This document shows, one piece after another, positions 3,001 through 58,500 of a stretch of DNA of 64,000 nt. Every line of letters starts with the position of its first letter. Within the stretch, counting starts at the first letter, position 1. Both the position numbers and the translations under genes were made by a program. Below the pieces are notes generated by a model. The model worked only from the letters and a program-made list of their open reading frames with translations, made no database searches and had not been told where the DNA came from. The DNA lies in contig CP000071.1 of NCBI GenBank assembly GCA_000002445.1, positions 1,408,001 through 1,472,000 on the forward strand, read 5' to 3'. The DNA comes from Trypanosoma brucei. Lineage: Eukaryota.

Positions 3001-3536
3001 CTCGTTTCGGAAGGAAGGGATACTGTTTATGGACCGCATCCGTTTTCGTAGCATTCTCCTCGGCCAATTGCGTCACGAGCGCCTTCATTTTCTCCTCCAT
3101 AGCAGCAATCGCCTCTGCGTTGCCTGCCGGATCGCGGCGTAGCTCGTCCAGCTCATTCGACAGGTCACGGAACTCCTGTTGCTGAGCAGGTCGCACATCT
3201 GCGAGACACACACCACGCACAGGCTCTTCGGGCAAGAACGGGTAACGCTCACGGAGGCCTTCAGCACGGACTGCGGCACGGAGCCTAGAGGAACGGAGGT
3301 CACTCACGATTTTGTCAGCAGCGTCACGCAATAATTTCTCCTGCTGAGCCCGGGCCGTCGGATCCATATTAGATGCATCCTGCGTGTAGCGAGATGCTAG
3401 CTCCGCAAATGTGGGATCTGACATGAGATGCAACTCGCCCAGCGGGATCCCTTTCAAGGTACGTCCCAGAAACGGGTAAGCTGCTGCAAGGGACTCCTCT
3501 TCGGCCTTGCGTTCTTCAACAATCGCCCTCACTCGC
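1..3536. repeat. Macro tandem repeat inside the giant CDS. The unit is 1701 bp (567 codons, in frame). About 2.08 near-identical copies are visible (1-1701, 1702-3402, partial 3403-3536) and the array probably continues left of the window.
   Basis: Plus-strand ORFs at 26..307 / 1727..2008 and 105..1010 / 1806..2711 are identical, giving an offset of 1701. Only isolated mismatches were seen, for example 631 versus 2341 C/T and 1557 versus 3257. Confidence 0.9.
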
Positions 3537-33901: not shown

Positions 33902-35230
33902 TCAACTCATAGCCGTGTAATTGAATTTTTCGCACACAGCAGCTAGTGAACGAACATTTTTAACAGAAATGGCAAGTTGCCGCGCAAAATTTATAAGGGC
34001 AACTCTCTCTCCTCTGTTTAGTTCCACCACATTCTCAGCGGAACCGAAGACAATTTTCAACGCGGTGGCAAGAGCAGCTGTTTCCAACTTCCCCCAAGCG
34101 CGGCACTTTTCACACGTGACGCAATCCATGAGAGTTGTAACATTGTGCACCACGCGCTTCATTTGCCGAACCAGTAGGTGCGCACCCGGAGACTCAAAAA
34201 ATTTTTGCTCGTCGAAAGTTGCTACGCGGAATAGCTTGCTGCTAAAAAGTTCCCCAATATTGCTGTAGAGACGCACATCTCCATCTGTAGCAGCGCCGTT
34301 GAAGCCAGAGTTATACAAACTTGAGTTAGCAAGAAATGCACGTTTGGTCTTCGCCAGAGCGCGAAGGACAAACTGGTAGACAACAAAAAGGTTCCTTATG
34401 AATTCGTCATTCTTAACGATGCGGCGGAACATGCCACAGTTAGGATAGAAAGATATATTGGGATTATTTAGCACACCTAGGCTGCGCAGCGGAGAGTCAC
34501 CCTTCGTATCATTATAAAAGAAAGCAGCCACATGCATGGTTATAGAAGTATGGAGCCCACTTAGAAGCTGCCGAAGTAAAGCCTTCTCTCTGTTTTCTAC
34601 ACCAGCCGTATCATTACTTGGAAGTCCGTCAATATTGCAGTTGTTATATACAGCCTGCCAAACCCGCGCTGCTTTCGGTCCCGAATATCCGGTGTTTGCC
34701 TCTGGGTTTTGGAGAAGATCCACATATGTTGCATCTCTATCTGGGTCGATCGGCTTGATCTCGTCCTCGAAACCTTTTGCTGCATGTTTGTCAGGGGCCG
34801 CACGACGTTCAACCGTGGAAACATCACTCATATCGTATGGGTATTTTAGTGTTTCGGGAATTCCACTGTCATCACAAGTGCAGATCTGGCATCCATTTGA
34901 ATCACATGTACAACTAGCCTCAGCGACCCAGTAACGACATTCCCTGTCCAGATTTACTTTAAAGTACCGAAAGTATGGGTGACTCGTTATGTTGTTAAGA
35001 AGGCCTGTAATACCCTCAGTGTTCTGACTGACCTCATCCATGGTAAGGGAACAAAACCCCTCCTTAAGGGCATTTCCTTTCTTGGTCCTTACATATGAGC
35101 CAGCCCCGGAATTGTTGGCTGAAATGTACATCCCAAAAAAAGAAACACCATCCAATTCAGCACGAAGTAAAATTTGCCAAACAAGTCCTAGAAGAACAGG
35201 AACTACTATCAATAATCGCATCTTCAACAT
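33902..35230 (-). CDS. ERO1: ER oxidoreductin 1 (ERO1), 442 aa with a signal peptide.
   Basis: The N-terminus MLKMRLLIVVPVLLGLV is hydrophobic. The CxxCxxC active site DCVTCEKCRAWGKLETAALATALKIV matches the Ero1 consensus. Confidence 0.85.
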   Translation of the reverse strand: MLKMRLLIVVPVLLGLVWQILLRAELDGVSFFGMYISANNSGAGSYVRTKKGNALKEGFCSLTMDEVSQNTEGITGLLNNITSHPYFRYFKVNLDRECRYWVAEASCTCDSNGCQICTCDDSGIPETLKYPYDMSDVSTVERRAAPDKHAAKGFEDEIKPIDPDRDATYVDLLQNPEANTGYSGPKAARVWQAVYNNCNIDGLPSNDTAGVENREKALLRQLLSGLHTSITMHVAAFFYNDTKGDSPLRSLGVLNNPNISFYPNCGMFRRIVKNDEFIRNLFVVYQFVLRALAKTKRAFLANSSLYNSGFNGAATDGDVRLYSNIGELFSSKLFRVATFDEQKFFESPGAHLLVRQMKRVVHNVTTLMDCVTCEKCRAWGKLETAALATALKIVFGSAENVVELNRGERVALINFARQLAISVKNVRSLAAVCEKFNYTAMS

Positions 35231-36192
35231 CTCCCGATGTGAATAGTACGATTAACCTACACGAACCACAGATAAAGAATTTAAAAAAAGGGTATCTATT
35301 TTTTAAAAAAAAATCGGATGCAGAGAGGTACCGTCATCAATTGCGGTCCCCAACAACTTTAAAAAACAGTAAAAGGTAACGACCTAGGAAACCCCTCTGA
35401 GTGAAGCTACATAATTGAATGGAAGTGCAACTGATGTCCCCCTCTGACATTCTGAAACGGTAGTCACTTTTAGGCCACGCGGCGACATATCCTAAAAGGA
35501 CGGTGATTGACAACAGAAAACTGATATCAAGCAACGTACAGTTTTAATTCACCAAACTGGGCATCATCACTTCCACCCAACAGTAAAGAAAAAAAATTCA
35601 GTGATGCGATGCCGGAACTTCTGCGGAAGGAAATGTTTAAGTAAGTTGCTCAATTTAAAAAAAAAAGTGGAAATTGTACTGGATTTTTAGAAAATGTCCT
35701 TAAGCATGTCACTCCGTTCGCCCAACATACCCCGGCCTTAGTACCAGGGTTGAAGTTGATTAAGTTTGCGGCGCCGTGACTTCTGTAACGATAGCACAGC
35801 ATATCTTCGACTCTGTCAACTGTGGTGCCACCGCTCCTCCACACGATGCGGCCACCACGCCACTGTTTCGAGTCCGGCTAAAAATAAAAAAACGAACACG
35901 GCTTTCCAAGGTGAGCCACCCCTTCCTTAAAGAGTTACCAGACAGTAGAGTTGGGTGGGCAGACATTGCAGTCGCCATAATGGCCAGCGCCTCAATCCGA
36001 CATAAGTACTAGTTTGTGTTTACCAACAGTCGCAGCCACACTCAGCACCACCCACCCATAATGGCAATTAGATGCGCAACACCGGCCTCAGCAGCACCAC
36101 CACTCAGGCATCCCCCTGAGTCGACGAAAGTTAAGCCCACATCTGCAATCGCGCACAACAAAGTCCCACGGACAGCCCGTGACGAAATATAG

Positions 36193-36206
36193 CCCCCCCC
36201 CCCCCC
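36193..36206. repeat. Homopolymer C14 on the plus strand (G14 on the coding strand of the leftward unit). A second C13 tract lies at 36415-36427.
   Basis: Read directly from the sequence. Both tracts sit in the C/A-rich block of the strand-switch region. Confidence 0.9.
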
Positions 36207-39200
36207 GATCGGCACTGCCACAATGTGAGGTAGTGCGACGCCACCAAAAACATTGAAGCGGCCCACCAGACACCCTCGGCCGGCTCGTCTGCTGGACCCC
36301 TTGTCTCCGTTTCCCCGCATTCATTGTTCACAAATGGGGTCCGTCAACACCACCTCCACCACGTCGCGCTTTCACTTGGTGACCGCATCCGTGCTCTCAC
36401 AGTGCCCATCGCCACCCCCCCCCCCCCTTGTCTACTACACGGAAACGGAGGGCCACCCCTCCCGATCAATCGAAAACAGTGAAGAAACATCAACACCAGT
36501 TTGCGCGACAAGGGGGGAAAGTCAGCACCACACCCCCTTTTGAGAAGCTCAGCCACAGGCTAACCCCTCCTCGCTCAAAGCCCTCAAACCATGGGGGCGC
36601 CCTCGCAGCCCGTCCCACCCACATCTCACAGTCACTGTTCTCGGGCAACATCCGGGCCGCCAGGAGCAAAGACAATGATAAAAAAAAATAAACCAGCAAA
36701 CCCTAAGGGCAGCAGCCCCCTTCGATCGAAAGAGCGGAAATACTTCGAATCAAACCAAAGCAATACGCAAGCATTTGTACCGACGCCCTGCCCCCACGTT
36801 CCATCTACCATCAACCGTCGGTACGTCGAACGGTGACAGACAGCTCGGCCTTTTCGCATTCTCTGTTGATTAGCATCTTCAACGGTACAAGCTTACACCT
36901 CCACTAACTATGGGAAAACGGCAACGCTACAACAAGAAATAGATCATCAGCCCGGGGACCCTAGTCATCCTTTGCTTGGACCGAAGCAAAGTTACACCAG
37001 GCCTTTCGAAGAGGCACCAGCGGCCCTTGAAGGCTCCCCGTCCACACACCCCAAAGACACTTCAGGCATTAGCTGGGAAACCGCCCTCTACATCTCAACA
37101 ACTCCCCCCTAGCATGCATGTAGCGTACGTCTCCTCCAACGTGTTGCGGGTGCCTCAACAGCGCATCTTAGAACTTTCGCCCCATTGGAAGAAGGCGGCC
37201 GTCCCGTAAAAGAGCCAGGTACTAGCGCTGAGAGGCGGCCGGAGACGCCGGGGGGCTAATCCTCACCTCGAAATAAGCCATCGTGACGCCAGCTACTTCA
37301 TTAAGGCGGTGGGATCCCATACTTCTCTTTTTTTATTGAGGGGAGCAGAGAAATGGCCATGTTCTACAAGTGCGCAAAACGGTTGACTGTGCCTGGGCCG
37401 AGCTGTCTTACGGTGCGTGGACTCCGTGGGTCACAATAATTCTCCGTTTTCCCATGGGCACATCCGATCGTGCCATAGGCATCTTGAACCGTACAATTGC
37501 AGTGACGAAATATTTTGGCACCCTGCGGTTCCCCACAACCGCCGCCTCGTTATGATGCAGTTCTAACAAAACCATGAAGAAAAGGTTTTTTTTAAAAAAA
37601 GAAAACATTATTATTATTTTTTTTTAGGGGGGTGGGTCCTGCGACGGGAGTGACTAGGCCCTACTGAATAAATTATTATATGCTATCCTCCTTAATTTTT
37701 TAATACAAACGGATAGCGAAGGTAAGTTTTCCTCAACTTCAACATGTAGATTAGCCTCTCTTTTTTTTTTCTGTGAACGTATTATTTGTTGTCCAAAAGT
37801 GCAGGAACAACTTGTTTGTCGTTTTCCTTCCAGACGGTTTTTCTCCATTTTGGAGTAGGGCAGGCGAGGCACTGACCGTTCCCTGTAAAAACACATCCTC
37901 AGGACCTGGTCTGTCAGGGGCCCTCGGCATGTCGACACCGCCTTTCACATCTGCCAGCCAGCCGGCCCACAATGTCTAAAAACTGCTGGCGCTGAGGATG
38001 GCTCGTGTGAGGCTGGATGGCGCGCACCGGCAACCCCCGTCAGATATATCATTGGGGACGTCCTCAAACACCCAAGAGGCCGACTATCCTAACGTGGTGT
38101 GGCAAGTTGGCGCCCCGCTGGAGGGGAAGAGAAGAGCCGAACCTCCATTCGTGATTTCAGGGCGAAGTTGGAAATCCAGAAATGGAAATGTGAGCGATCA
38201 TGCGCAACACTACTGGGACTCCGGGAAGAAAGTGTGTTTTCTGAGTGATGGCGCCTGAAAATACAAACTTTCACTTGCTTTCGGTGTCAATTGAATCTTA
38301 TTTCTCCTTAACAAGGATGCAGAACAGATTCCTCATCCCATTCTCTATGGAGATTAACGAAATGTGAGGTCTCTCAGTCATAAAAAGGTTGCTTCTCTTG
38401 AAAGCGCCTCATGGGGACACGGCGGCCTTTCGCCTTCCTTAATAGACGCTCATGAAGGTTGAGGAAGGCAGAATGAAGGCTTGCGCCCATTATCAATACA
38501 TAGTGTTGCCTTGCTGTAAAATGAAGAGTAACAGCGTATCAATATTCATTCGAAACAAGATATGAGTAATTGACGCTCCAAAAAATTATTATAGTCTTAG
38601 AAAGCATAACCATTACGGTGACGCCTGAAAATGGTGAACAGCTCGGTGTGGCATTTGCCTGCCTTCCCAATAACTCTAATGTAAGCATGTAAAGGTTGTA
38701 GCAATTAAAAGCGAGGATCAAGATTCAGTAGCCGTCGGAGCTGACGTAAAACAGCACTATTTTGCTTGAGACATCCGCATCGCAGAGGAGAACGGTGATG
38801 AAGCTGACGTTGAATTGATAGCTGTAGAAGAGTTTAACAGTTACCAACAATGAAACCCCAATTTGATATACAGCATTCGGAGGCGCACTGCTTTCAATAG
38901 AAGTTACCTGTTTTACGCACAGCAATGTAACATTTTGGAAAGCGATGCGAAACTTTTGCGGTTATTGTAGTTGGATATTGCTCAATGTAGCATTATAAAG
39001 GGATATGAAGAAAATTGTGGATTGTCCAAATTTTCCAAAACATTGTGTGCCAGAACTCGGTAAATAGGTAAAAACACGTGTCGATGGCAGTTGAAAACAT
39101 CAATGATGCCATTACATCTGTAGTGGATTAGACAGCACCAAAAAACAATTCATAGGAAGAAAATGTTGTTCCTCCTTCATTAGAGAAAGGAGGGTGTTGA

Positions 39201-39610
39201 ATATAACAGCTGTGAGGACATGCAGGAAGATGCACTTCAAAACTGCTAATGGATGAGACAAAGAAAAACTTCGTACCTTATTGAAAGAATTATTCACAGC
39301 ACCATTATTATAGATTCCTACCCTAATAATGGAAGAGGAACCCACCGAAAGAAAAGGGGAGCGAAGTCGCAGATCTTAATGAATATGTAAGCGAATCAGT
39401 CTACAAGAAGTCCAACAACTGAATTGAAGAGCACCTGTTGGCCAAAGAGCCTCTTTTTAAAACTGTTTATCGCTGCTAAACTGATAAATGCGGTAAAATA
39501 ATCATTGTCATGGAAAACGGTAGTGGGGAAGAAATTAACTACGAGAGATCAAAGGTGATGTTTACTTCAACTCTGCAGCTTCTTCCGAAGATGAGGCACC
39601 CTTTCTGATC

Positions 39611-39612
<2 letters not shown>

Positions 39613-39652
<40 letters not shown>
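39613..39652 (+). repeat. (TG)20 dinucleotide microsatellite.
   Basis: Read directly from the sequence. It is what produces the spurious ORF MCVCVCVC at 39614..40264. Confidence 0.95.
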
Positions 39653-39653
<1 letters not shown>

Positions 39654-40483
39654 AACATCATTCCACCACTCTCGAACAAAAGAATCAGCTAAAGACGTTG
39701 AACAATCTGGGCTGCTGGAACCAACGGGTGCTGTGTGTGAATTCATCGAGAGAGCACAGCTTAAGGGGCCTAAAAACTGGGTTCGAGAGCGACACAGCTA
39801 CGACGGTCAGGTTTCCGACAGGGGGACGCAGCACTAGCTCTGTTTTAGAGGTACAGAGCGCAATCGAGGCAGTGGAGAAACGCACCCGAAGCGTAGCAGC
39901 GTTTATAGACTATGTTAGGGCATTTGGCCAGGTGCAGCGCAACTGTGGCGTTCGAACGCTAGGGTGTTTCGGAGTGCTTATCACACTCGATATGGTAGAT
40001 AGGCAACTTCTCGCCACACGGAACAAAAATGTCCAGAATGCACAGTGTGCAGGCCGACGGTGCCAGGCGACGCACGGCACGCTGCGGGATTCGTTGTTTT
40101 GCAAGACCCTATTCTCCGGGGCAACAGAATGGGTGAGCGCGAAACCGAATAAGATCCCTGGACTCAGGGATAGTTTGTTTACCGGTATTATGGCCCTCAA
40201 ACCGTTGGGCTCGGAAAAGGCAGAACGGAGAGATACGCAGCAAAGGTGGAAGCTGGGGGTTTGATGACGATTGTTTCAAAGACGCTTTATAGAGTACCGG
40301 TAGAGAAAAAAAGGGTATCACCCGCATGGCGTGCGCACTGGGGACTCACTGCACCTTCGGGGTCCAGGATAAAAGATTAACGATACGAAGGCCTAAAACC
40401 CTTGAACCTCGGTTTTCAGTAAAAACAAAAACACAATTATCGCTTCTTTATCAGTTGCAGTAGCTCTTCCCATGTTATTTTCC

Positions 40484-40527
40484 AATTATTTTTATTATTA
40501 TTTTTATTATTATTATTTTTAATTTTT
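40484..40527. repeat. AT-rich (ATTATTTTT)-type low-complexity tract.
   Basis: Read directly from the sequence. Confidence 0.8.
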
Positions 40528-42519
40528 GCCGATTTGACCCCTCTAAGGGTGCAAAAGGTTACTCCAACCCTCTGGATATACCTACGAGGACAAATCTCTT
40601 CGGCGCTGAAAAGGCCGCCGGCATTTCACTGAGCTCTTTAGGCACTAAGGGTTGGGTTTGGCTCAAAATCTCTGCATAAAATTAAGGGAGGATAGAAAAC
40701 CCTCGTTGGGGCAGGTTGGAACGATGCTTTGCTGGGTCTGAGTCTCTTTTTTTCGCCCCAGCACAATACTGTTCCATTCTTTTGACCCACAGCAGGGACC
40801 ACAACGCCGGTAGCATCCCAGTTTCACGAGAAAAGCACGTGGAGCCAGCTTGCTATCCATCTGGAAAGTGTGTACTTTTTTGAAACACGGCGAACGAACT
40901 GGTGCTGCCTTGGAAAAGGCGCTTCACATGCAGCCGCTTAGGTAAATTTCTATTCCGTTTCTGGGGGAAGCGGTTTATGTGCAATCACAGGCTTCGTAAA
41001 ATAACCTCTTACAGAGTAAATAGGTGAAAGTACATCCTGCTATCTAAAAAACTATTTTTCTTTTTTTTTTTTGATAGCTGATTGTGTATAATTACAAAGA
41101 AACGTAAACGTATTCACATACCTGCGGGTGTGGACCCACCCTTCTCTAGTGGAAAGGATGAAGTGGGTGTGAGGTTTTACGCCTTAAAACAGGTAGAAAA
41201 CAGAAAGTGTTGGCCCACTTCCGATTTCCGATGTTATGTCCTTTTAATTGATAACATCGTCCTCTCACCACCGCAGTCCAAGTGCTTTGAGGAGAACCGT
41301 GAAACCTCCACGTCTTAGCAGAGCTGTTATTCCAATGCGGCCGTGCGGCTCGTTTCACCCCTCACACTTGGAGGCTCGGGGTGTCCAGACCCAGGGGCAG
41401 GTGACTTCTCACGCTAAGGTGCTAGTCGGCTCCCGGTCCCCCTTCGCACCAGGCTGTGTTCGTGTGGTAGGTCTCCAGTCGGTCCAGCTTTCCCTAGAAT
41501 GCTGTTTTGAGTGCATTTCGCAGCCACGTAAAACCACTGCCTTGTTCCGTTCCATTGCTATCCAGTCCGGGGAATTTGTGAAGCCGGTAGCGCTATCGGG
41601 GTGATGCTTCTGGCGGTGACGGTCTACCGCATGCCGGCCCTGTGATTCTCATAAAGCTCACCGCGCATAATAGGTTCCACTGGAAGATTGTTTTGGGGTG
41701 GGGATTGTCACTGCCTCCACGCCTACTTTCCCACTTATCATCCCTGTGGCACTGCCTTCAGTCCATCATCGCCCCCCTGACGGGCTGTTTTTTTTTTTTC
41801 CTTTCCCGATGGAGTGAACGGGGAACCACCTTCGATCTAGAGAATAGCTTTGCTAGAGAACGGTTTTCGCCTTATGGTGCTGAAAGCTGTGGTGGGAGGT
41901 GTGTGTGTGCATGTGTAACTACGTTGCTGACCCTCGCGAGCGGCGCCGCACATACTCTGCTCTGCCCCAATTCGCCGGTCCGGCCTCCGAGGAGTGCCCT
42001 TTGGTGAGGACTGGAGTGACTAGACGTGACCACGGCTGGGGTTGAGTCCCTTCCACGAGGAAATGATGGTTCGTGGCGCTTGGTATCGTTAATTTTTACC
42101 AGGTTGTACGCGTTGAGTGGATCTGCGTAAGCTTTGAGCCGTGGAGCGGTCCGTTGCCCCTCCCATTGGTAAAGCGGCTGTCGTTGACCACGTGATGCCC
42201 CTTTTGGCACTAGGTATATCGTGTGCCGGCGGGTGGTGTTTATGATTTCACTTGCGGTAGTTTGCGGGTCTCACATTGATGGTGTCTTGGGGGCGCGTGA
42301 GAAATCGCGTTGCGGCGTACTGCTGCCTGATCTGGCAACCTTTTTGTGTTTGACGCTGAGGGCAAGCGTGCCTATATTTTTCTAAACATGGGAGAGGTTT
42401 GTTTGCTTCCTTTTTTCCCAACTGTTGCGGCGCATGTTTTATTCGGGCTATGCTTGTGCAATGAATTCTTGTCCGCTTTCCGTCTGGGTTTACCCATCGT
42501 GCTTTAGGTATTTAAAGCG

Positions 42520-42828
42520 ATGACGTTTAAATTCTTTTACAATGTGCCGAGGCAGGTGCACTCTTTTAGAGGCGGGTCGCGCGGACCTCGCCGGGCAGAG
42601 GTGTTCAATCGCCTAACGCGTCAGCAGTTTCGACGGAGGTTGATGAGCGGAACCGCTGCTTCTAATGCCAAGAGCTGGGATGCACTGGACCGAAAGAGAA
42701 TGCAGCGAGACTCCGTTGTTGAGCATCGTCGGCTTAACGTTGCCCGCATGCCAGCGGCGGTGATAAGGCAGAAACTAAAAAGGGGGCCACCCCACAAAGG
42801 CGATGATAAGTATTTACTTCGACCTTAG
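42520..42828 (+). CDS. Candidate small basic protein (102 aa, Arg/Lys-rich), possibly the first gene of the rightward unit.
   Basis: True ATG at 42520. A poly-pyrimidine tract (gcttccttttttccc, about 42400-42420) with downstream AG dinucleotides lies within ~100 nt upstream. No homologue recognised. Confidence 0.3.
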   Translation: MTFKFFYNVPRQVHSFRGGSRGPRRAEVFNRLTRQQFRRRLMSGTAASNAKSWDALDRKRMQRDSVVEHRRLNVARMPAAVIRQKLKRGPPHKGDDKYLLRP

Positions 42829-44351
42829 CCATCGGGCTGCCATTTGTTGACGCGATCAACTCGTTATTCGGCTGACTGGATACATGCGGACGCTGTATGT
42901 TTTGGCTAACTACATTATTCCTTTTCTCTTTCCACGCACTTTGCTTACTATCTGTTCGGGGGGTTTCCTCGTTGGCATCTTACACGGAGGTTGATCTGGA
43001 AAGTAAATTTGTTGGACGTCTCCGGGAGATATGTACAATGCGGCTTTAGTGGAATGTAAGCGTATTTAGTTTTTATCGTGATGGACAAATGCATTTGTTT
43101 GTCTTGAATTATTGGGTGTGGTTGTGAACCATATGATGATTGTTGTTTTTCTCTAATCATTACTCTTGTGATGCAGGGATGTTGTGCATTGTCGGCTAAC
43201 TGCCATTGTTTCCTTTACAAGGGTTATTTCAAATCGTTGGTGTTTATTGCAAAGGTCGTTACGGCCGGGGTGGAGGTTAATGGAGCTTCTCTTTCAGCTT
43301 AATAACCAAAAAAAGAGGAGTATGCGTCACCTTTTTTGCTGCGTCATCAACACATCTTGTAGGAAATGTAGGGAATGACGTTATTATGTAGTTTGACGGA
43401 ATATTGTGAGGTTAACGCCATTTGACCAGGACAACCATTTTTGCTTTCTTGTTCACTTGCCTATTCTTTTCAAAGGGTTGCATGAAGGATGTATATTTAG
43501 ATCTGTTTTTATTTATGTTACGAGACTCCACCCCATTATAGAGTTTACGGGTCTTTCAAAGTAGCAAGATACCGATATAAAGACATTGGCATTGTGACGC
43601 ACAAGAGCGTCGTTGGTCTTAGTTTCGAGCGGGGTCCTTATGTTTTATGATTTGTTGACCGTGTGAGCAACTACTTGTTTCTCACAGTTGTAACGACTTA
43701 ATTGTTATTACTATTTTGTCGGGTGCTTTGTTCGATTGCCCACACATATTTTGAATCTGGTGATCACCAAGAAATGGCAAAACGAATCAAAAATTCCGTA
43801 TTTGGTTGTGTAAACTAATTTGCTGTCGAAGAAAGTATACACCGTAGATGAAACCTTCTCTATCTCTCCCTTAAATACACCGTACCGTACATTTTTTTTT
43901 TCAGATTTAGCTTGTGGACATATTTGGCTGAACATATGTGTGGAGTATGATGCAGCGTTGGAGATCCGATTTCTTCACTGATTTTGTTTGTGAAGGTTTC
44001 CGTCCATTTATTCTTACATGCAACATCGCGGAAGAGTGATTAAGTTTTTTCATTGTATCTTTAACTTTCATTTCTATTTTGGTTAAAAAATGAATAGATG
44101 AGTTGCGGTGGCGATGTGACAGAGGGACGATTGTGTTTTTTTATTTCTTATGTTGCTTTTTTAATTTTTTTGCCGCGATGTCAGTGTACACATATTAAAA
44201 TTCATATTAGTTTTGTTTGAGCACGACTTTATATTTTACTGAGTGGACTACTTGGATGGTTGGTTGTTTCTTCACTGTTGTGGCCAACGACTTTTTATAT
44301 CTTGCACTCACTCTGCACTGGGTTGTGGATTTACATTTTTAGACACAGTTA

Positions 44352-47300
44352 ATGTCTTCGGAGGCGGTAAAAAGACATATATTGGCTGCGATTCATACCC
44401 TGAATATTCCCTTGGACCTAGCACCAAGTTCGACCAAGGTGGATGAGGTTTGTTCTGCAGCGAAACTGCTTCGTAATCGCGTTCTTCGAGAAATCGCACG
44501 TGTTGAAAAGTCAATAGAAATGTTAAAGCAGAGGCAGTACGGTGACGCTGATGAGAGCGAGATGGACGAAGAGGCTATATCTGAAAATGTGGGGAGCTCA
44601 ATAGACACACATAATCTTACCAGGTACGATTTTATGTTTATAAGCGAAATGATGGTTATGGAAAATCTTGTTGTTCCGTTATTACTGGCTCACGGGATGA
44701 ACTTTGCGACTTCGCTTTTGCCACAACTGCTAAAGCTTCTCGCAGTAATGCTTCTACCTATTATACCGTGTTCTCATGAGGTACCACGTCAGCTAGATTA
44801 TGTTCGTCGTCTAATCGAGCGGTGTGGAACAGATGACTTTTTCTGGCTCTTGATTCAGTGTATTGTTCCGGTCACGGAGAAGCGCTCCAAAGGTGAAGCC
44901 CGAAAAGAAGACTCTATTCTTCTTGAAATTGTGCTAAAGATGATTGCTCTGTTTTTTACGGGTCCAAGAGAAAGTGTTGCGCAAGTTATCGGTGCCTTTG
45001 GCCGAAACCATGGGATCGAGCTGTTTCTTGTGGTACTGAATCAGAATTATGCTCGGTATGAACATAGAAATAACAAAGATAGCAATGATGTAGCGGTCGA
45101 TCCCATATCTCCCTCAGCCGGTACGAGTAATACAGAACGCTCTGGCGTGATTGTTCTTGATGGTGACACAGATGAGGAAGATGCGGTGGATTTGTCTGGG
45201 GAAAGCAACTCTGGGGAGGAATCAAGCGATACGGGATCCACTAATTCTGAGAGGTTTGGTCGAGTTTCAAACCACCTTAACGTTGATGATCAATACAGCG
45301 CGCGGATTGTCGAAATACTTGAAAGTGATGACCAGTTATGGAAGTGGAACACCCACATCATTACCGCGATGTCTGCAATACTTCGCTGTGCGCAATCGGC
45401 TGAACTTGCAAAACTAATATTTACCTCGAAATTCCGTCAGGGGTCATCCCAGCAGTTAGCTTCTCTGGCAGAAAATTCCAAGCGGTTTCGGGAATTTACG
45501 TCTGAGTCGAAGAAATGGAGACATGTTGCAAGAAGCAGGAATGGTGCCGTGAGTTCCAATGGTTTGCTTGTGCGTGGTACATCTTCACATCTGCAGGGAG
45601 AGGGAGGTGTGATTGGATACACGTCAACACTTCTAGGTTATCGAACAAAAGATCCTATTGAAAAGGTCCGTGAAATTGACTCAAAAAAAAGAGGCCGTTA
45701 TGTAAAAGGAACGTCTGACGATGCTTCCATCATATGTAACCTTTCTCTACCGACGAAAATTCAGTTGGCAGAACAATGTCTCTCGTTTATATGCTATGGA
45801 TTTGAACCCTTAAGCATTATGGTTTGGGATCGTCTGGCTAAATCGATTGCCTCCTTTAGAGACGCTGTGTGTGAACGGAAAGAGTTCATAGCGGGACGCA
45901 AATCGTCTGGGGAGGATGTTGAACTTCCGTCAGAGTTCGAGAAAAGTGTATACGAGTCGATGCAACAAGTTCTAAATTACCTGGAAATGTGTACCTCATT
46001 ACTACGTTACACCAGGGAAGCTGTTCGTTTGAAAAAAGAGGGAATCGATGATGAGCCTTCTCAGTTTTTTAATCAGCAGTGGAAGTGCATTTCAAGTGTA
46101 ATAACTCTTGAGCACATATTTAGCGGCTTTGAGCTGCTGCGTGTACTTTTAATGTCTCCAGATTTGAGGCGGCGGTTCGGCGTATGGACTGTGGCGAACT
46201 ATCTTGCCGAACTTTTTATGACTCTGAACCACCTGGTGGACGGCGACATAGTGGAGGACCCTCATGTGATTGGCGCCGCGCATGCTTTAGTCTCTTCAGT
46301 ACTTTACAAGGAGGAATATGTCCAGTTGGTGTTCGATACCATATCGAAGACGTCAACCAAGCCCATTTCTCCATACCGTGCCAGTGTGCTAGTATTACTG
46401 CTTTACTCCGTGTTGCGACTTATGGAGAAATGTAGTTTCGGCGGCCGTTTGTTATTTCCACGAAGGAAGAAGAAAGCGAGCAAATTCGTTGTTCATGAGA
46501 CGGAGGACAATGTAGGCATATGTTTTAATGAAGCAGATATGCCAATTGTTGAGTGTGACCCTCATGTTTCGTCCGAAGCAGTTAAAGATCGGCCAATCGC
46601 TAATGGAGAGATAACCGACCCATCAACTATTTCGTCATTGCAAATATCTTCAAATGTTATTTCGATGAATGAAGTGCCTGAGGGCAGCGGCAGAGTTGAG
46701 GAGTTATGCGCCGGAGACCGATCCGTTGCAGGTGAAAGTTGGGTTAACTCGACTCACAATGGCGAAAGGGAAGTGAACATGCGTCAATACTTCAAGCGCC
46801 TTTCCACCGGACAAAATGTTTCTGTATTGCTTTCGTCACTTTGTCACTGGAGAGCGAACGATTCGGATGTAAACGAGGGGTTGGAATTTTTGATTCGCTC
46901 CTTTATGGCCGAAGGTTGTGTTACCACATTGTTTAGTGCATCCTTCCTTATTACCATGAGGGATATTTTGACCAATGGTAGCGAAACACACCGTGGGTTG
47001 TATGAGGCATGTGACGAAGTTATTTATTTGTTTTTTAATCCCCCTTCTGCCAAGTTTTTTGACGAACGGAAGGAAATCGAGTTCGCGTCTTCTTCTGGTA
47101 TTTTACAGGGATCTGAATCATTTCTGGGATTTGAAGTGTCGTTGCGATGTGCCCGATCATTATTCTGCTTTAGTTCGACAGAGTACATGATTTTAGAGGA
47201 AAAGGGGTTTCCTGACTTCAGAGATTCCACTGTTATTCCCTTAGCGAGTGAGGGCACAGTGGTCAACGGCTCAGGGAAAGAAAGTGTCGAACTCGGTGTT

Positions 47301-47438
47301 TTCAGCACAAAGAAACCTCGGGACAAACGAGAGTCGTTGTCAAGACAAAAGGGAGGAAAACGAAGGAAATTCGACGATGAAAACGTGGATGTTTCCATAG
47401 ATGAACAGGCCGATATTGCTGTCGGTCTAGAAGTTTAA
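44352..47438 (+). CDS. Hypothetical conserved-looking protein, 1028 aa, with an acidic Ser-rich linker (DGDTDEEDAVDLSGESNSGEESSDTGS).
   Basis: Long ORF, ATG confirmed at 44352. No domain recognised. Confidence 0.6.
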   Translation: MSSEAVKRHILAAIHTLNIPLDLAPSSTKVDEVCSAAKLLRNRVLREIARVEKSIEMLKQRQYGDADESEMDEEAISENVGSSIDTHNLTRYDFMFISEMMVMENLVVPLLLAHGMNFATSLLPQLLKLLAVMLLPIIPCSHEVPRQLDYVRRLIERCGTDDFFWLLIQCIVPVTEKRSKGEARKEDSILLEIVLKMIALFFTGPRESVAQVIGAFGRNHGIELFLVVLNQNYARYEHRNNKDSNDVAVDPISPSAGTSNTERSGVIVLDGDTDEEDAVDLSGESNSGEESSDTGSTNSERFGRVSNHLNVDDQYSARIVEILESDDQLWKWNTHIITAMSAILRCAQSAELAKLIFTSKFRQGSSQQLASLAENSKRFREFTSESKKWRHVARSRNGAVSSNGLLVRGTSSHLQGEGGVIGYTSTLLGYRTKDPIEKVREIDSKKRGRYVKGTSDDASIICNLSLPTKIQLAEQCLSFICYGFEPLSIMVWDRLAKSIASFRDAVCERKEFIAGRKSSGEDVELPSEFEKSVYESMQQVLNYLEMCTSLLRYTREAVRLKKEGIDDEPSQFFNQQWKCISSVITLEHIFSGFELLRVLLMSPDLRRRFGVWTVANYLAELFMTLNHLVDGDIVEDPHVIGAAHALVSSVLYKEEYVQLVFDTISKTSTKPISPYRASVLVLLLYSVLRLMEKCSFGGRLLFPRRKKKASKFVVHETEDNVGICFNEADMPIVECDPHVSSEAVKDRPIANGEITDPSTISSLQISSNVISMNEVPEGSGRVEELCAGDRSVAGESWVNSTHNGEREVNMRQYFKRLSTGQNVSVLLSSLCHWRANDSDVNEGLEFLIRSFMAEGCVTTLFSASFLITMRDILTNGSETHRGLYEACDEVIYLFFNPPSAKFFDERKEIEFASSSGILQGSESFLGFEVSLRCARSLFCFSSTEYMILEEKGFPDFRDSTVIPLASEGTVVNGSGKESVELGVFSTKKPRDKRESLSRQKGGKRRKFDDENVDVSIDEQADIAVGLEV

Positions 47439-47684: not shown

Positions 47685-48029
47685 ATGCCCGCCAGACCCA
47701 ATGAAGAACAGTATACTCCGGAGATGTTGCAGCTTCGCGTGAAGCAAGGACTCCAAAAGCGCAAGAAGTGCGCTCTTTGTCTGCATGTGTTTCATGTCAA
47801 CGAACTGCCTGGAGCTATCACTCACAAATCTATACTGGAACTTCGGAAAAAATGGGGGTTAGACGTAAGGCGCGGTGACCGCATGCCTCCCCCCTCGCAG
47901 TTGTACAAAAGAGAGGAGTTGTGCGTCTTTTGCATGCAGTTCTTCGGTACGAGTGGTAGCACACAATCTCAGCAACAACTTCTGGCTTCCACACGTGGAG
48001 GAATGCCGGCTCGTTTAACCCTCCGTTAG
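47685..48029 (+). CDS. Candidate small Cys/His-containing protein (~114 aa), zinc-binding-like (CALCLHVFH...CVFC).
   Basis: The listed start at 47670 is TTG; the ATG is at 47685 (MPARPNEEQY...). A strong poly-pyrimidine tract at 47590-47660 (tttcttcgactttcctcccc) is followed by an AG. It fills a 1.6 kb gap between neighbouring genes. Confidence 0.4.
   Translation: MPARPNEEQYTPEMLQLRVKQGLQKRKKCALCLHVFHVNELPGAITHKSILELRKKWGLDVRRGDRMPPPSQLYKREELCVFCMQFFGTSGSTQSQQQLLASTRGGMPARLTLR

Positions 48030-54598: not shown

Positions 54599-54640
<42 letters not shown>
54599..54640. repeat. (CA)21 microsatellite in intergenic sequence.
   Basis: Read directly from the sequence. Confidence 0.95.
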
Positions 54641-55532: not shown

Positions 55533-58500
55533 ATGGAGTACAAGCGATGCAACTCAAGCCGCACGACGGCGAGCATCAGTCGATCTCCTCAGCTACGCAC
55601 ATCTGCCACGTCAACACCAGTGCGCAGCGCGACACCAATGCGTACCCCTACATCGGCACGGAGTGGTGCTTCGAGCGCGCGCCGTACCTTGACGGGTACA
55701 GGTACAGGGAGCGGAGCATTGAGAAGCGTAGGCTTGGATGGCGCCTCCCCGAGGGCGAAAGGACCTGGTTTACCACGACCCATTGCCTATAAACGTAGCG
55801 GGACAGCTACCAGCGGCGGTCAAGTGGACAGCGGCAACGATATGAGCATGGTTAGCAGCAGGAGTGCAATCGGCGACAGCCCCAAAGGAAAGCGCGGGGC
55901 GCACAAGCCCGCAGTGGCAAAAACCGGCGGAAACGGACGTGTCAACGTCTATGCTCGAGTGCGTGCCTTCTCTCCAGCTGAAACAGCGGATAATCAGCAT
56001 TCGGCGGTGCATCTGAGTGACAACAAGGTGGAGGTTGTTGTGTCCCCCAAGAGCGTTTACACTTTCATGCTTGACGGGTGCTTTTCGAGCACTGGTTCCC
56101 CGTCGGATGAGGGCTTCGCATCACAGAGCAGTGTTTTCGATGCCATTGGCCGGCCACTGGCTGAGAACGCTCTAGCAGGTTACAACGCCGCAATTATGGT
56201 TTACGGACAAACTGGAAGCGGCAAGACGTACACGATGTTCGGCCCTCCAAAATCGTTGGGGACGGAGGAGCAGGGCCTTGTGCCACGAGTGTGTAATATG
56301 ATCTTTGAGCGGGCTGATGCTTGCTTGCAGAAGGGCATCACATGCCGTGTGTGCGTGTCTATGCTTGAAGTGTATCTGGAAGACGTGTTTGATCTGTTCA
56401 GCAACCGCAAACAAGTGACAGTGCGGAAGGACTATTTGGACAATTCCTTTCATGTTGTTGGGGCTAAGTCCATCCCTGTGAGGCAGTATAAGGATGTTGA
56501 AGAACTGTTGCAAAGGGCGGAGGCACTTCGAACATTTGCTGCGACCGCCATTCACGCTCGCTCCTCTCGTGCGCACGCACTGTTTCAACTAGAGTTGTAC
56601 ACTACCTTCGAGTCGACAGACATCGCGCCTCGTACGGCTAAGATTCTTCTGGCCGACCTTGCTGGGTGCGAGCGTATTAAACTTGCCCAAACAGAGACAG
56701 GCATTCCCTTTGAGGAGGCTCGGAACATCAATCTTTCGCTACTTTCATTGGGTTCGTGCATTGAGGCTGTTACCATGCGTAAGGGATCAAGTCAAAACAT
56801 TCCTGAGTTCCGTAATAGTACTCTCACTAAGTTGTTGAAGGAATACTTGGGTGGAAACAGCGTGTCTTCTATCGTTGTAACCGTTGGACCCAGCGTGCGC
56901 GATGCTCGTCTCAGCGTGCAATCGCTTCGATTCGCTGACCGTGCCATGAAGGTCGTGACTCATGCTAAGATAAACACAGTGAAACCCATTACCGAGCTTG
57001 ATGATGCAGATGGTTCCGAAGACAAGGTGCGTGAGGCTTATAACAAAAAGAAAGAGGCATTACAGGTCGAGTTTCAGGTGCAGAGCGAGTTGCAGAAGCT
57101 GCAGAATAAGATCACAATTTTGGAGTGTCAGCTAATGAACTCTGTGGATGACGAAGTTGTCGCTCGACTCCAGGAGGAAATATCTACCTATCAGAAGTCG
57201 CTTGCTGATGCTGACTTAGAGCTGCAGCAGCAGCGTCGTGTATTGTATGACAGTGAGGTGATGCTAGAGGAGCAACTAAAGGAACTGAACACGAGGATGC
57301 AAGAAATGATAGAGGAAAACGAAGAGGCAACAGAAAACCTCTTGGCCGAATGTCGAAAAAAACACACGGAGCGGCTTGAGGTAGAACAAAAGCGGCACGA
57401 AGAGGAGGTGGATGTCCTTTTAAAGAGTCACGAATTCGAATTGGAGAGAATCAACCAGCTTCTTCAAGATTCTGACACGAAATGTGCCGAACTCACGACC
57501 ACCTTGTTCAAAACTAAAGAGGATCTTCGCAAAACAGACGGTCTGGTAGATGAAATGCAGATGGCACTTGAAGAGCTTGGGGACGCATCAAAGGCAACCG
57601 AGACTGAGCTTTACGGCTATGTCGAGCAGCTTCGCAGTGAAAACAGTCGATTAAGCACCGCAATAGACACTCTCCGCCAACAGTTGAAAGAATCTGAAGC
57701 ATCCGTTGAAGATCGTGACAATCGTCTAAAGGAACATGAGGAATCATTGGATACCCTCCGCCAACAGTTGAAAGAATCTGAAGCATCCGTTGAAGATCGT
57801 GACAATCGTCTAAAGGAACATGAGGAATCATTGAATACCCTCCGCCAACAGTTGAAAGAATCTGAAGCATCCGTTGAAGATCGTGACAATCGTCTAAAGG
57901 AACATGAGACATCATTGGATACCCTCCGCCAACAGTTGAAAGAATCTGAAGCATCCGTTGAAGATCGTGACAATCGTCTAAAGGAACATGAGGAATCATT
58001 GAATACCCTCCGCCAACAGTTGAAAGAATCTGAAGCATCCGTTGAAGATCGTGACAATCGTCTAAAGGAACATGAGACATCATTGGATACCCTCCGCCAA
58101 CAGTTGAAAGAATCTGAAGCATCCGTTGAAGATCGTGACAATCGTCTAAAGGAACATGAGACATCATTGAATACCCTCCGCCAACAGTTGAAAGAATCTG
58201 AAGCATCCGTTGAAGATCGTGACAATCGTCTAAAGGAACATGAGGAATCATTGAATACCCTCCGCCAACAGTTGAAAGAATCTGAAGCATCCGTTGAAAA
58301 TCGTGACAATCGTCTAAAGGAACATGAGGAATCATTGAATACCCTCCGCCAACAGTTGAAAGAATCTGAAGCATCCGTTGAAGATCGTGACAATCGTCTA
58401 AAGGAACATGAGGAATCATTGAATACCCTCCGCCAACAGTTGAAAGAATCTGAAGCATCCGTTGAAGATCGTGACAATCGTCTAAAGGAACATGAGGAAT

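What the first reader, a model, noticed from the sequence alone, without database searches (positions are those of the whole stretch)
35231..44351. Roughly 9 kb divergent strand-switch region with mirrored, strand-specific GT-rich elements flanking an AT-rich core
On the leftward unit's side, 36000-37250 is strongly C/A-rich on the plus strand, which makes it G/T-rich on that unit's coding strand. It includes G14 and G13 homopolymers (plus-strand C tracts at 36193-36206 and 36415-36427). On the rightward unit's side there is a (TG)20 tract on the plus strand at 39613-39652. An AT-rich, low-complexity core sits between them at about 38250-39600. GT-rich coding-strand elements have been implicated as RNA pol II promoter determinants at trypanosome transcription start regions. 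This locus shows the two-sided, strand-consistent arrangement clearly.
Basis: partly seen in the sequence, partly recalled or inferred. Interest (0 to 1): 0.6.

Follow-up and report, generated by a model that had tools for sequence, protein, structure and literature searches.

The report
Ordinary trypanosome divergent transcription start region
This is a typical, already catalogued region of Trypanosoma brucei chromosome 8 where two gene arrays start in opposite directions, and its "AT-rich core" is the decayed remains of a mobile element rather than a designed spacer.

Summary
The window is T. brucei TREU927 chromosome 8 (window position = Tb927_08_v4 coordinate minus 1,408,000). The finding is the divergent strand-switch region between ERO1 (Tb927.8.4890, leftward) and Tb927.8.4900 (rightward). 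Kolev et al. 2010 already list both units as "Divergent" Pol II units.

The reported tracts sit exactly where stated: G14 and G13 on the leftward coding strand, and (TG)20 on the plus strand. The C/A-rich block is the most strand-skewed stretch of the whole 64 kb. G10 and GTGTGTGTGG are the two top coding-strand 10-mers of Wedel et al. 2017, so the reading as a GT-rich Pol II start region fits known biology.

Three corrections:
- The gap is not 9 kb. Three published spliced transcripts lie at 41.8-44.2 kb, and one holds a 102-aa ORF conserved from Leishmania to T. brucei.
- The "AT-rich low-complexity core" has normal complexity. It is a decayed ingi-type retrotransposon: an N-terminal relic at 38.3-38.8 kb, a reverse-transcriptase (RT) relic at 39.8-40.4 kb, and probably a second 5' fragment at 40.5-40.7 kb.
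- (TG)n lies inside that relic and varies from 5 to 20 repeats between Trypanozoon genomes.

Exact initiation sites could not be checked. The finding is ordinary and of low novelty.

The parts
33902..35230 (-). ERO1 (Tb927.8.4890), the first gene of the leftward polycistronic unit.
   Evidence: Pfam ERO1, E 6.6e-84. Exact match to XP_847319 of T. brucei TREU927. Kolev 2010 Table S14 lists it as the first gene of a 'Divergent' unit.
35869..37250 (-). GT-rich, G-run-rich block on the leftward coding strand (C/A-rich on the plus strand). Candidate dispersed Pol II promoter, or 5' end of the leftward start region.
   Evidence: Strongest keto skew of the window. 25 Wedel 10-mer hits on the minus strand in 35-37 kb. 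Highest density of G>=4 runs in the window, and 2 of the 3 canonical G4 motifs. No coding or retroelement homology was found.
36193..36206 (-). G14 tract on the leftward coding strand.
   Evidence: Its length is 14, 11, 11 and 10 in four Trypanozoon genomes.
36415..36427 (-). G13 tract on the leftward coding strand.
   Evidence: Its length is 13, at least 10, 17 and 13 in four Trypanozoon genomes.
38295..38799 (+). Relic of the N-terminal part (2A-like peptide, start of the endonuclease domain) of an ingi-type non-LTR retrotransposon. It has stops and frameshifts and makes up most of the 'AT-rich core'.
   Evidence: Three HSPs lie on one diagonal (38203-38209), collinear with the RT relic. Only 1 of 300 shuffled queries scores as well. 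The alignment shows DAEQIPHP against DVERNPGP.
39613..39652 (+). (TG)20 microsatellite lying inside the retroelement relic. Its 3' edge forms GTGTGTGTGG.
   Evidence: Repeat number is 20, 16, 5 and 5 in four Trypanozoon genomes.
39824..40360 (+). Reverse-transcriptase relic of the same element. Its catalytic FADD motif is replaced by FTGI.
   Evidence: tblastn with the T. vivax ingi-like ORF gives E 6e-8 in the window, and P0055 gives E 4.5e-9. The family HMM gives i-E 1.5e-9. The alignment is shown.
40521..40712 (-). Probable 5' fragment of a second ingi-type element in the opposite orientation (2A-like DFEPNP, then AQ*NAGGL).
   Evidence: tblastn E 0.002 and 0.005 against the switch region. 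This is weaker evidence.
41813..42383 (+). Tb8.NT.78, the first spliced and polyadenylated transcript of the rightward unit.
   Evidence: Kolev 2010 Table S7: 1449813-1450383 (+). A T12 polypyrimidine tract and an AG lie at the site.
42508..43363 (+). Tb8.NT.79 transcript, carrying the conserved 102-aa ORF (42520-42828).
   Evidence: Kolev 2010 Table S7, with an AG directly before 42508. The ORF is conserved from start to stop in T. cruzi, T. theileri, T. vivax and L. donovani.
43476..44225 (+). Tb8.NT.80 transcript. No conserved ORF was found in it.
   Evidence: Kolev 2010 Table S7, with an AG directly before 43476.
44352..47438 (+). Tb927.8.4900 (Timeless-N-like, 1028 aa), the first annotated gene of the rightward unit.
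   Evidence: Exact match to XP_847320. Syntenic orthologues are present in all the species examined where the upstream sequence reaches far enough.

Best explanation
The region is the divergent RNA polymerase II transcription start region of T. brucei chromosome 8 between ERO1 and the unit that begins with Tb8.NT.78, the 102-aa gene and Tb927.8.4900. Two oppositely oriented, dispersed promoters fire outward.

Leftward promoter. It is most likely the 1.3-kb GT-rich block with its G-runs on the leftward coding strand, 0.6-2 kb upstream of the ERO1 ATG. By the published model, such sequence excludes nucleosomes, favours H2A.Z deposition and gives directional initiation.

Rightward promoter. It must lie between about 38 and 41.8 kb. 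This sequence is largely the wreck of one, probably two, ingi-type retrotransposons, and it has only a weak GT signature.

Shown here: the gene divergence, the composition, the tracts, the match to the published 10-mers, the retroelement relics, the conserved small gene and the position of the first processed transcripts.

Inferred: that the GT-rich block is itself the promoter, and where initiation actually occurs.
For: - Organism and genes.
- The locus is listed as 'Divergent' for both units. 5'-triphosphate tags were reported 'at every divergent transcription unit'.
- Published model: two oppositely oriented directional promoters within 5-10 kb divergent switch regions. GT-rich coding-strand 10-mers concentrate at the 5' end of start regions, and synthetic GT-rich DNA drives directional transcription and H2A.Z deposition.
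- At this locus, G10 occurs 9 times, only on the leftward coding strand. Wedel 10-mers peak at 35-37 kb on the minus strand. The extremes of keto skew flank the switch. G-run density is mirrored, with the minus-strand maximum at 36-37 kb and raised plus-strand values at 40-42 kb.
- G tracts of at least 10 nt are kept at both sites in four Trypanozoon genomes.
- GT-richness just upstream of ERO1 is also seen in T. vivax, T. theileri, T. cruzi and T. congolense.
- The first processed plus-strand RNA starts at 41813.
Against: - No initiation, H2A.Z or Pol II occupancy data for this locus could be read. Promoter positions are therefore inferred.
- The right side carries few of the strand-biased 10-mers.
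- (TG)n shrinks to 5 repeats in T. b. gambiense without any known consequence.
- A (CA)21 tract lies in the 'wrong' sense inside the same unit.
- The orthologous switch regions of other trypanosomes lack G-runs and TG tracts.
- Staneva et al. 2022 found no shared motif under Pol II/CRD1 peaks.
Confidence: 0.8

Rival explanations
1. The G-runs, the (TG)n tract and the GT skew are by-products of strand-asymmetric mutation, replication slippage and decay of inserted DNA. They are not causal promoter elements at this locus, and initiation is set by chromatin or other sequence.
For: - Tract lengths vary freely between close relatives: (TG) 20/16/5/5, and G tracts 14/11/11/10 and 13/>=10/17/13.
- The tracts are absent from the orthologous regions of four other trypanosomes.
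- (CA)21 lies antisense within the same unit.
- (TG)n lies inside a dead retroelement.
- All 1.8-kb fragments of two tested start regions had activity, and no motif was found under Pol II peaks.
Against: - Synthetic GT-rich DNA alone gives orientation-dependent transcription and H2A.Z deposition.
- G10 is about 8-fold enriched on the coding strand at the 5' ends of start regions genome-wide.
- G tracts of at least 10 nt persist at both sites in all four Trypanozoon genomes.
Confidence: 0.3
2. The rightward unit is driven by retroelement-derived sequence. The plus-oriented ingi-type relic would contribute an internal Pol II promoter of the L1Tc Pr77 type, or later-evolved elements such as (TG)n.
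For: - The plus-strand relic points into the rightward unit. It occupies 38.3-40.4 kb, upstream of the first splice site at 41813.
- L1Tc Pr77 is a Pol II-dependent internal promoter and its sequence is kept in DIREs.
- The same orthologous region holds ingi-type sequence in T. vivax and T. congolense.
Against: - No 79-bp signature was found at the predicted 5' end near 38.07 kb. The best weak match is 0.8 kb away, with E 4.2.
- The ingi/RIME 5' ends gave no reporter activity in T. brucei, as cited.
- The insertions in the three species differ in position and orientation. They are therefore independent events, not a conserved functional part.
Confidence: 0.1
3. The region is a centromere, or some other structural chromosome domain, rather than a simple start region.
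For: T. brucei centromeres lie in switch regions that contain DIRE or ingi elements.
Against: Centromeric regions also carry kilobase arrays of AT-rich tandem repeats, one per chromosome. No such array is present here.
Confidence: 0.02

Closest known systems
Divergent Pol II transcription start regions (dTSRs) of T. brucei with GT-rich dispersed promoters (Siegel 2009; Kolev 2010, PMC2936537; Wedel 2017, PMC5579346)
   Same: - Two units diverge across a 5-10 kb gap.
- G-runs and GT-rich 10-mers lie on the coding strand near the inner edge of the leftward unit.
- The locus itself is listed as 'Divergent' in Kolev 2010 Table S14.
   Different: - The right-hand side has only a weak GT 10-mer signature.
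- Chromatin marks and initiation sites were not examined here.
DIRE (degenerate ingi/L1Tc-related elements), which are enriched in trypanosomatid strand-switch regions (Bringaud 2007, PMC2323293)
   Same: - Recognisable but stop-ridden and frameshifted similarity to the ingi-type ORF (2A-like peptide, start of the endonuclease, RT motifs).
- Location in a strand-switch region, the compartment with the highest retroposon density.
   Different: - No 79-bp 5' signature, A-rich tail or target-site duplication could be found.
- Only about 2 kb of an element of roughly 5.4 kb is detectable.
- The relic is too decayed to be found by database-wide protein searches.
L1Tc Pr77 internal Pol II promoter (Heras 2007, PMC1874656)
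   Same: A retroelement head that points into a transcription unit.
   Different: The Pr77-like sequence is not detectable here, and the equivalent ingi/RIME sequence was reported inactive in T. brucei.
Leishmania major chromosome 1 strand-switch region with C/G tracts
   Same: - A homopolymer G tract on the coding strand inside a divergent switch region.
- The L. donovani orthologue of this very region has a 9-nt run with the same strand logic.
   Different: The Leishmania region is compact (1.7 kb in this orthologue) and free of ingi-type sequence.

Membership tests
T. brucei divergent Pol II transcription start region | Two polycistronic units transcribed away from each other | tested here: met
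   - Minus-strand genes run up to 35230 and plus-strand genes start from 42520/44352.
- The cumulative GC skew has its minimum at 37-38 kb.
- Kolev 2010 Table S14 lists both units as 'Divergent'.
T. brucei divergent Pol II transcription start region | Enrichment of H2A.Z/H2B.V, H4K10ac and BDF3, and Pol II occupancy | not testable with these tools
   No per-locus ChIP table is held. The literature states that all divergent units carry these marks.
T. brucei divergent Pol II transcription start region | 5'-triphosphate (primary) transcripts that start in the region | not testable with these tools
   Kolev 2010 reports enrichment 'at every divergent transcription unit' and lists this one. No coordinates are given.
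T. brucei divergent Pol II transcription start region | Strand-biased GT-rich 10-mers and G-runs on the coding strand at the 5' end: leftward unit | tested here: met
   25 matches to the Dataset EV1 10-mers on the minus strand at 35-37 kb, the maximum of the window. G10 occurs 9 times, only there.
T. brucei divergent Pol II transcription start region | Strand-biased GT-rich 10-mers and G-runs on the coding strand at the 5' end: rightward unit | tested here: inconclusive
   - Only 7 plus-strand matches lie between 37.3 and 41.8 kb, and 3 of them are at or near the (TG)20.
- G>=4 run density is moderately raised at 40-42 kb.
- The strong G+T skew begins only at 42 kb, inside processed transcripts.
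DIRE (degenerate ingi/L1Tc-related element) | Similarity to the ingi/L1Tc ORF, interrupted by stops and frameshifts | tested here: met
   - RT relic with E 6e-8 to 4.5e-9, and family HMM 1.5e-9.
- Collinear N-terminal HSPs in three frames, with 1 of 300 shuffles as good.
- Stops lie within the alignments.
DIRE (degenerate ingi/L1Tc-related element) | Conserved 5' signature of about 79 bp (Pr77) | tested here: not met
   The T. vivax signature, defined, gives no significant match. The best is 37279-37323 with E 4.2, and there is nothing at the predicted 38.07 kb. Only one species' signature was available as a probe.
DIRE (degenerate ingi/L1Tc-related element) | A-rich 3' tail and target-site duplication | tested here: inconclusive
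   The 3' end of the relic cannot be located. Nothing is detectable beyond 40360.
T. brucei centromeric strand-switch domain | Kilobase array of AT-rich tandem repeats next to DIRE/ingi | tested here: not met
   Tandem Repeats Finder and the repeat search find only (TG)20 and a 37-nt (ATT)n.
Sequence-specific Pol II core promoters (Cordon-Obras 2022) | Defined promoter motif and initiator | not testable with these tools
   The paper is not held. Others could not find its motif under Pol II peaks.

The most novel reading that the evidence does not exclude
This strand-switch region is ancient, and it is shared with Leishmania. It is 0.5-1.7 kb long in T. cruzi, T. theileri and L. donovani. In salivarian trypanosomes it has been independently invaded by ingi-clade retrotransposons: intact and polymorphic copies in T. 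vivax, and decayed copies in T. congolense and T. brucei. In T. brucei the zone where rightward initiation must occur now consists largely of retroelement wreckage. The rightward Pol II promoter may therefore have been displaced onto, or rebuilt from, transposon-derived DNA, including the (TG)n tract.
Probability: 0.12. Interest if true: 0.45.

Novelty: already known. Interest (0 to 1): 0.18.

Why it matters
The result mainly serves as a calibration. A reader working from sequence alone can recognise a trypanosome Pol II start region from strand-specific G-runs and GT skew. The same reader mistook transposon wreckage for a structured "core" and overlooked a small conserved gene.

Two results are modestly useful:
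- The 102-aa ORF is labelled "hypothetical, unlikely" in T. b. gambiense, yet it is conserved across trypanosomatids and is the true first coding gene of the rightward unit.
- Natural alleles with 5 to 20 TG repeats and 10 to 17 G residues give a ready-made test of whether tract length matters for initiation.

Tried and rejected
- No tRNA genes and no Rfam families anywhere in the window. A Pol III-gene boundary or an snRNA/snoRNA explanation is rejected.
- Pfam scan of the 216-aa, 118-aa, 121-aa, 86-aa and 102-aa ORFs found nothing.
- The 203-aa ORF found nothing in the word-indexed search of 5.8 billion proteins. It also found nothing by phmmer against 1.84 billion representatives. The RT relic is detectable only by targeted comparison.
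- A Pr77/79-bp signature search with the T. vivax element head gave no significant hit.
- A search for a continuation of the minus-strand ingi fragment to the left of 38.1 kb, or for retroelement homology in the C/A-rich block, gave only noise-level, non-collinear HSPs.
- blastn and tblastx of the region against the T. congolense, T. vivax, T. cruzi and T. theileri orthologous regions showed one conserved feature, the 102-aa ORF. The remaining hits were low-complexity (ATT)n matches or short tblastx HSPs with E above 1e-4.
- The T. theileri/T. cruzi gene of about 220 aa that lies between the 102-aa gene and the Timeless-like gene has no detectable T. brucei counterpart.
- Per-locus ChIP or TSS tables were sought in the supplements of Staneva 2022 and Kraus 2020, and DIRE coordinates in Bringaud 2007. 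None were found. Siegel 2009 and Cordon-Obras 2022 are not held.
- The start regions tested by Wedel 2017 are on chromosome 10, not this locus.

Full report
**Identity of the window.** The flanking ORFs are ERO1 (33902-35230, minus strand) and a 1028-aa protein (44352-47438, plus strand). They match exactly XP_847319/AAZ13253 and XP_847320/AAZ13254 of Trypanosoma brucei brucei TREU927, on a 2.48-Mb contig. Poly(A)-site coordinates for Tb927.8.4910 and Tb927.8.4930 in Kolev et al. 2010 fix the offset: window position = Tb927_08_v4 coordinate minus 1,408,000. The offset is validated because the published 5' ends of Tb8.NT.79 and Tb8.NT.80 fall immediately after an AG preceded by a polypyrimidine tract. 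ERO1 is Tb927.8.4890 and the 1028-aa gene is Tb927.8.4900.

**Check of the observation.**
- The tracts are exactly as reported: C14 at 36193-36206, C13 at 36415-36427 and (TG)20 at 39613-39652.
- G10 occurs nine times in the 64 kb, always on the minus strand at these two sites. Dinucleotide-preserving shuffles expect 0.05.
- The block 36000-37250 is 61.9% C+A on the plus strand. This is 3.7 sd above the mean of 1250-nt windows in the leftward unit. The single most C/A-rich window of the whole 64 kb starts at 35869.
- The core at 38250-39600 is AT-rich (GC 0.403, 3rd percentile) but not low-complexity. Its compressibility and 4-mer entropy lie within one sd of the window mean, and Tandem Repeats Finder reports nothing of note there.
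- The most G+T-rich window of the whole sequence starts at 42034. The compositional mirror of the left block is therefore 42.0-44.5 kb rather than the (TG)20.
- A (CA)21 tract at 54599-54640 lies inside the rightward unit in the opposite sense. Dinucleotide tracts are thus not consistently strand-oriented here.

**The gap is shorter than 9 kb.** Kolev et al. 2010 (PMC2936537, Table S7) list three spliced-leader-bearing, polyadenylated "novel transcripts" on the plus strand of this gap:

| Transcript | Window coordinates |
|---|---|
| Tb8.NT.78 | 41813-42383 |
| Tb8.NT.79 | 42508-43363 |
| Tb8.NT.80 | 43476-44225 |

- Tb8.NT.79 carries a 102-aa ORF (42520-42828).
- This ORF is conserved from start to stop, without gaps and at 101-102 aa, at the syntenic position in T. 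cruzi, T. theileri and T. vivax.
- It is also recognisable in L. donovani.
- It is annotated "hypothetical protein, unlikely" in T. b. gambiense and "conserved" in T. equiperdum. The TREU927 protein accessions of its two neighbours (AAZ13253, AAZ13254) are consecutive, so the original record appears to give it no protein.
- The switch region proper is therefore 35231-42519 (7.3 kb). The stretch without known processed RNA ends at 41812.
- Rightward initiation must lie upstream of 41.8 kb.

**What the "AT-rich core" is.** The longest ORF in the gap (39614-40264) begins with the TG tract and looked to me like a decayed reverse transcriptase (RT). Database-wide searches found nothing, and Pfam found nothing. 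A targeted test became possible when the orthologous T. vivax locus turned out to hold two intact 1752-aa ingi-like ORFs (endonuclease, RVT_1, zinc finger) directly upstream of ERO1.
- RT relic. tblastn of the T. vivax ORF against the whole window gives one hit, residues 570-695 to 39824-40198 (+), with 29% identity and E 6e-8. A second family member gives E 4.5e-9 against the 7.3-kb switch-region sequence and extends the match to 40360. An HMM of 14 family members gives i-E 1.5e-9.
- RT motifs. The alignment shows FIDYxRAF and a decayed PQGSVL. The catalytic FADD is replaced by FTGI.
- N-terminal relic. Weak HSPs to residues 30-65, 55-77 and 173-197 lie at 38295-38799 in three different frames. 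They share one diagonal, collinear with the RT relic. Only 1 of 300 shuffled queries scores as well on that diagonal. The first of these HSPs covers the 2A-like peptide (DAEQIPHP against DVERNPGP).
- Possible second element. A second match to the same N-terminal segment lies on the minus strand at 40712-40521. It reads DFEPNP followed by AQ*NAGGL, against DVERNPGP...AQWNSGGL, with E 0.002. This suggests the head of a second element facing the first.
- Conclusion. The "core", the (TG)20 and the 216-aa ORF are all parts of a DIRE-like relic.
- Missing hallmarks. I could not find the 79-bp 5' signature at the predicted start near 38.07 kb. I also could not find a tail or a target-site duplication.
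- This is expected biology: strand-switch regions have the highest retroposon density in T. brucei (PMC2323293).

**How the left block compares with published promoter determinants.**
- Wedel et al. 2017 (PMC5579346) showed that initiation occurs at the 5' end of H2A.Z domains. They also showed that 10-mers biased to the coding strand concentrate there, and that synthetic GT-rich DNA drives orientation-dependent transcription and H2A.Z deposition.
- Their Dataset EV1 ranks G10 first (132 coding versus 17 non-coding) and GTGTGTGTGG second (18 versus 1).
- I counted all 157 listed 10-mers across the window. The minus strand has 25 hits in 35-37 kb, against at most 7 per kb anywhere else.
- The plus strand has only 7 hits between 37.3 and 41.8 kb. 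These include GTGTGTGTGG and TGTGTGTGGA at the 3' edge of the TG tract.
- The density of G>=4 runs is highest in the window at 36-37 kb on the minus strand, and moderately raised at 40-42 kb on the plus strand. Two of the window's three canonical G-quadruplex motifs lie in the left block.
- Kolev 2010 Table S14 lists Tb927.8.4890->4770 (-) and Tb927.8.4900->5330 (+) as "Divergent" units. The text states that 5'-triphosphate tags were enriched at every divergent unit.
- The current model is two oppositely oriented directional promoters within 5-10 kb divergent switch regions (PMC11796357).
- The locus is thus a standard, already catalogued example. Its leftward signature is textbook and its rightward signature is weak.

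**Comparative evidence.** The ERO1 <-> 102-aa gene/Timeless-like divergence is ancestral to trypanosomatids.

| Species | Distance from the ERO1 ATG to the 102-aa gene |
|---|---|
| T. cruzi | 0.48 kb |
| T. theileri | 0.81 kb |
| L. donovani | 1.7 kb |
| T. vivax | 6.3 kb |
| T. brucei | 7.3 kb |
| T. congolense | more than 10 kb |

- The three expanded regions all contain ingi-clade sequence, but at different positions and in different orientations.
- T. vivax has intact tandem copies. They are present on one contig and absent from a sister contig that is otherwise 99.9% identical.
- T. congolense has a frameshifted relic in the same orientation as ERO1.
- T. brucei has the relics described above.
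- None of the non-Trypanozoon regions has a G/C run of 8 nt or more, or a TG tract of 6 repeats or more. GT-richness on the ERO1 coding strand just upstream of ERO1 is nevertheless seen in all of them.
- Within Trypanozoon the tracts persist but vary in length:

| Tract | TREU927 | T. equiperdum OVI | T. b. gambiense | GCA_003543875.1 |
|---|---|---|---|---|
| (TG)n repeats | 20 | 16 | 5 | 5 |
| G tract, site 1 | 14 | 11 | 11 | 10 |
| G tract, site 2 | 13 | at least 10 | 17 | 13 |

- The G tracts therefore look maintained at 10 nt or more. The TG tract behaves as an ordinary microsatellite, although even the 5-repeat allele keeps the GTGTGTGTGG word.

**Interpretation.**
- Best explanation (confidence about 0.8): this is a divergent Pol II start region with two outward-firing dispersed promoters. 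The left promoter corresponds to the GT-rich block with its G-runs. The right one lies somewhere in 38-41.8 kb, within or beside retroelement wreckage.
- The causal role of the individual tracts is inferred from published reporter work on other sequences. It was not shown for this locus.
- Main rival (about 0.3): the tracts are mutational by-products with no causal role here.
- The idea that the retroelement supplies the rightward promoter is possible but weak (about 0.1). No Pr77-like head is detectable, and ingi/RIME heads were reported inactive in T. brucei.
- A centromeric role is excluded by the lack of AT-rich repeat arrays.

**Verdict.** It adds nothing new to that knowledge, and three details needed correcting: the gap size, the nature of the core, and the status of the (TG)20. 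Interest is low (0.18), and the novelty rating is "already known".

Noticed in passing
window 42520-42828 (+): A 102-aa basic ORF, transcribed as Tb8.NT.79. It is conserved from start to stop in T. cruzi, T. theileri and T. vivax and is recognisable in L. donovani. T. b. gambiense labels it 'hypothetical protein, unlikely'. It has no Pfam domain.
   Followed up: partly
L004 1-9403, compared with L003 (T. vivax GCA_021307395.1): Two intact tandem 1752-aa ingi-like ORFs begin about 600 nt upstream of the ERO1 ATG, flanked by a repeated CAATGTGATAT. A sister contig is 99.9% identical from that point on but lacks them. This looks like an insertion polymorphism or a haplotype difference.
   Followed up: partly
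L002 6502-8647 (+) (T. congolense): A frameshifted ingi-type relic (residues 737-1461 of the T. vivax ORF) lies 1.3 kb upstream of ERO1, in the same orientation as ERO1. Neither the 102-aa gene nor the Timeless-like gene occurs within 10 kb upstream.
   Followed up: partly
window 39613-39652, 36193-36206 and 36415-36427, compared with L001, L008 and L009: Tract lengths differ between four Trypanozoon genomes: (TG) 20/16/5/5, G tract site 1 14/11/11/10, and site 2 13/>=10/17/13. T. b. gambiense and GCA_003543875.1 each have a third G-run (G11 and G10) about 1.87 kb upstream of ERO1. TREU927 has only G6 at about the same distance (near 37104), but that correspondence was not established by alignment.
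   Followed up: yes
window 43476-44225 (+), compared with L007 7920-8582 and L006 about 8400-8870: T. theileri has a 220-aa gene, with a T. cruzi homologue, between the 102-aa gene and the Timeless-like gene. No T. brucei homologue is detectable there. That position holds the transcript Tb8.NT.80, which has no conserved ORF.
   Followed up: partly
window 47685-48026 (+): A 114-aa ORF, apparently Tb927.8.4910, is 84-86% identical to its T. cruzi and T. theileri orthologues. That is unusually high for this neighbourhood.
   Followed up: no
window 57501-59480: About 21 head-to-tail copies of an 84-nt (28-aa) unit, 95-99% identical, lie inside the 1456-aa ORF 55533-59903.
   Followed up: no
window 1-5000: A 1701-nt tandem repeat with about three copies, the first two 100% identical, presumably a tandem gene array.
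   Followed up: no
window 54599-54640: A (CA)21 tract on the plus strand inside the rightward unit. It is the reverse complement of the (TG)20 that lies 15 kb upstream.
   Followed up: no
L010 9114-9122 (L. donovani): The compact 1.7-kb orthologous switch region has a 9-nt C run. This is G9 on the coding strand of the 102-aa/Timeless-like unit, about 0.8 kb upstream of that gene.
   Followed up: no
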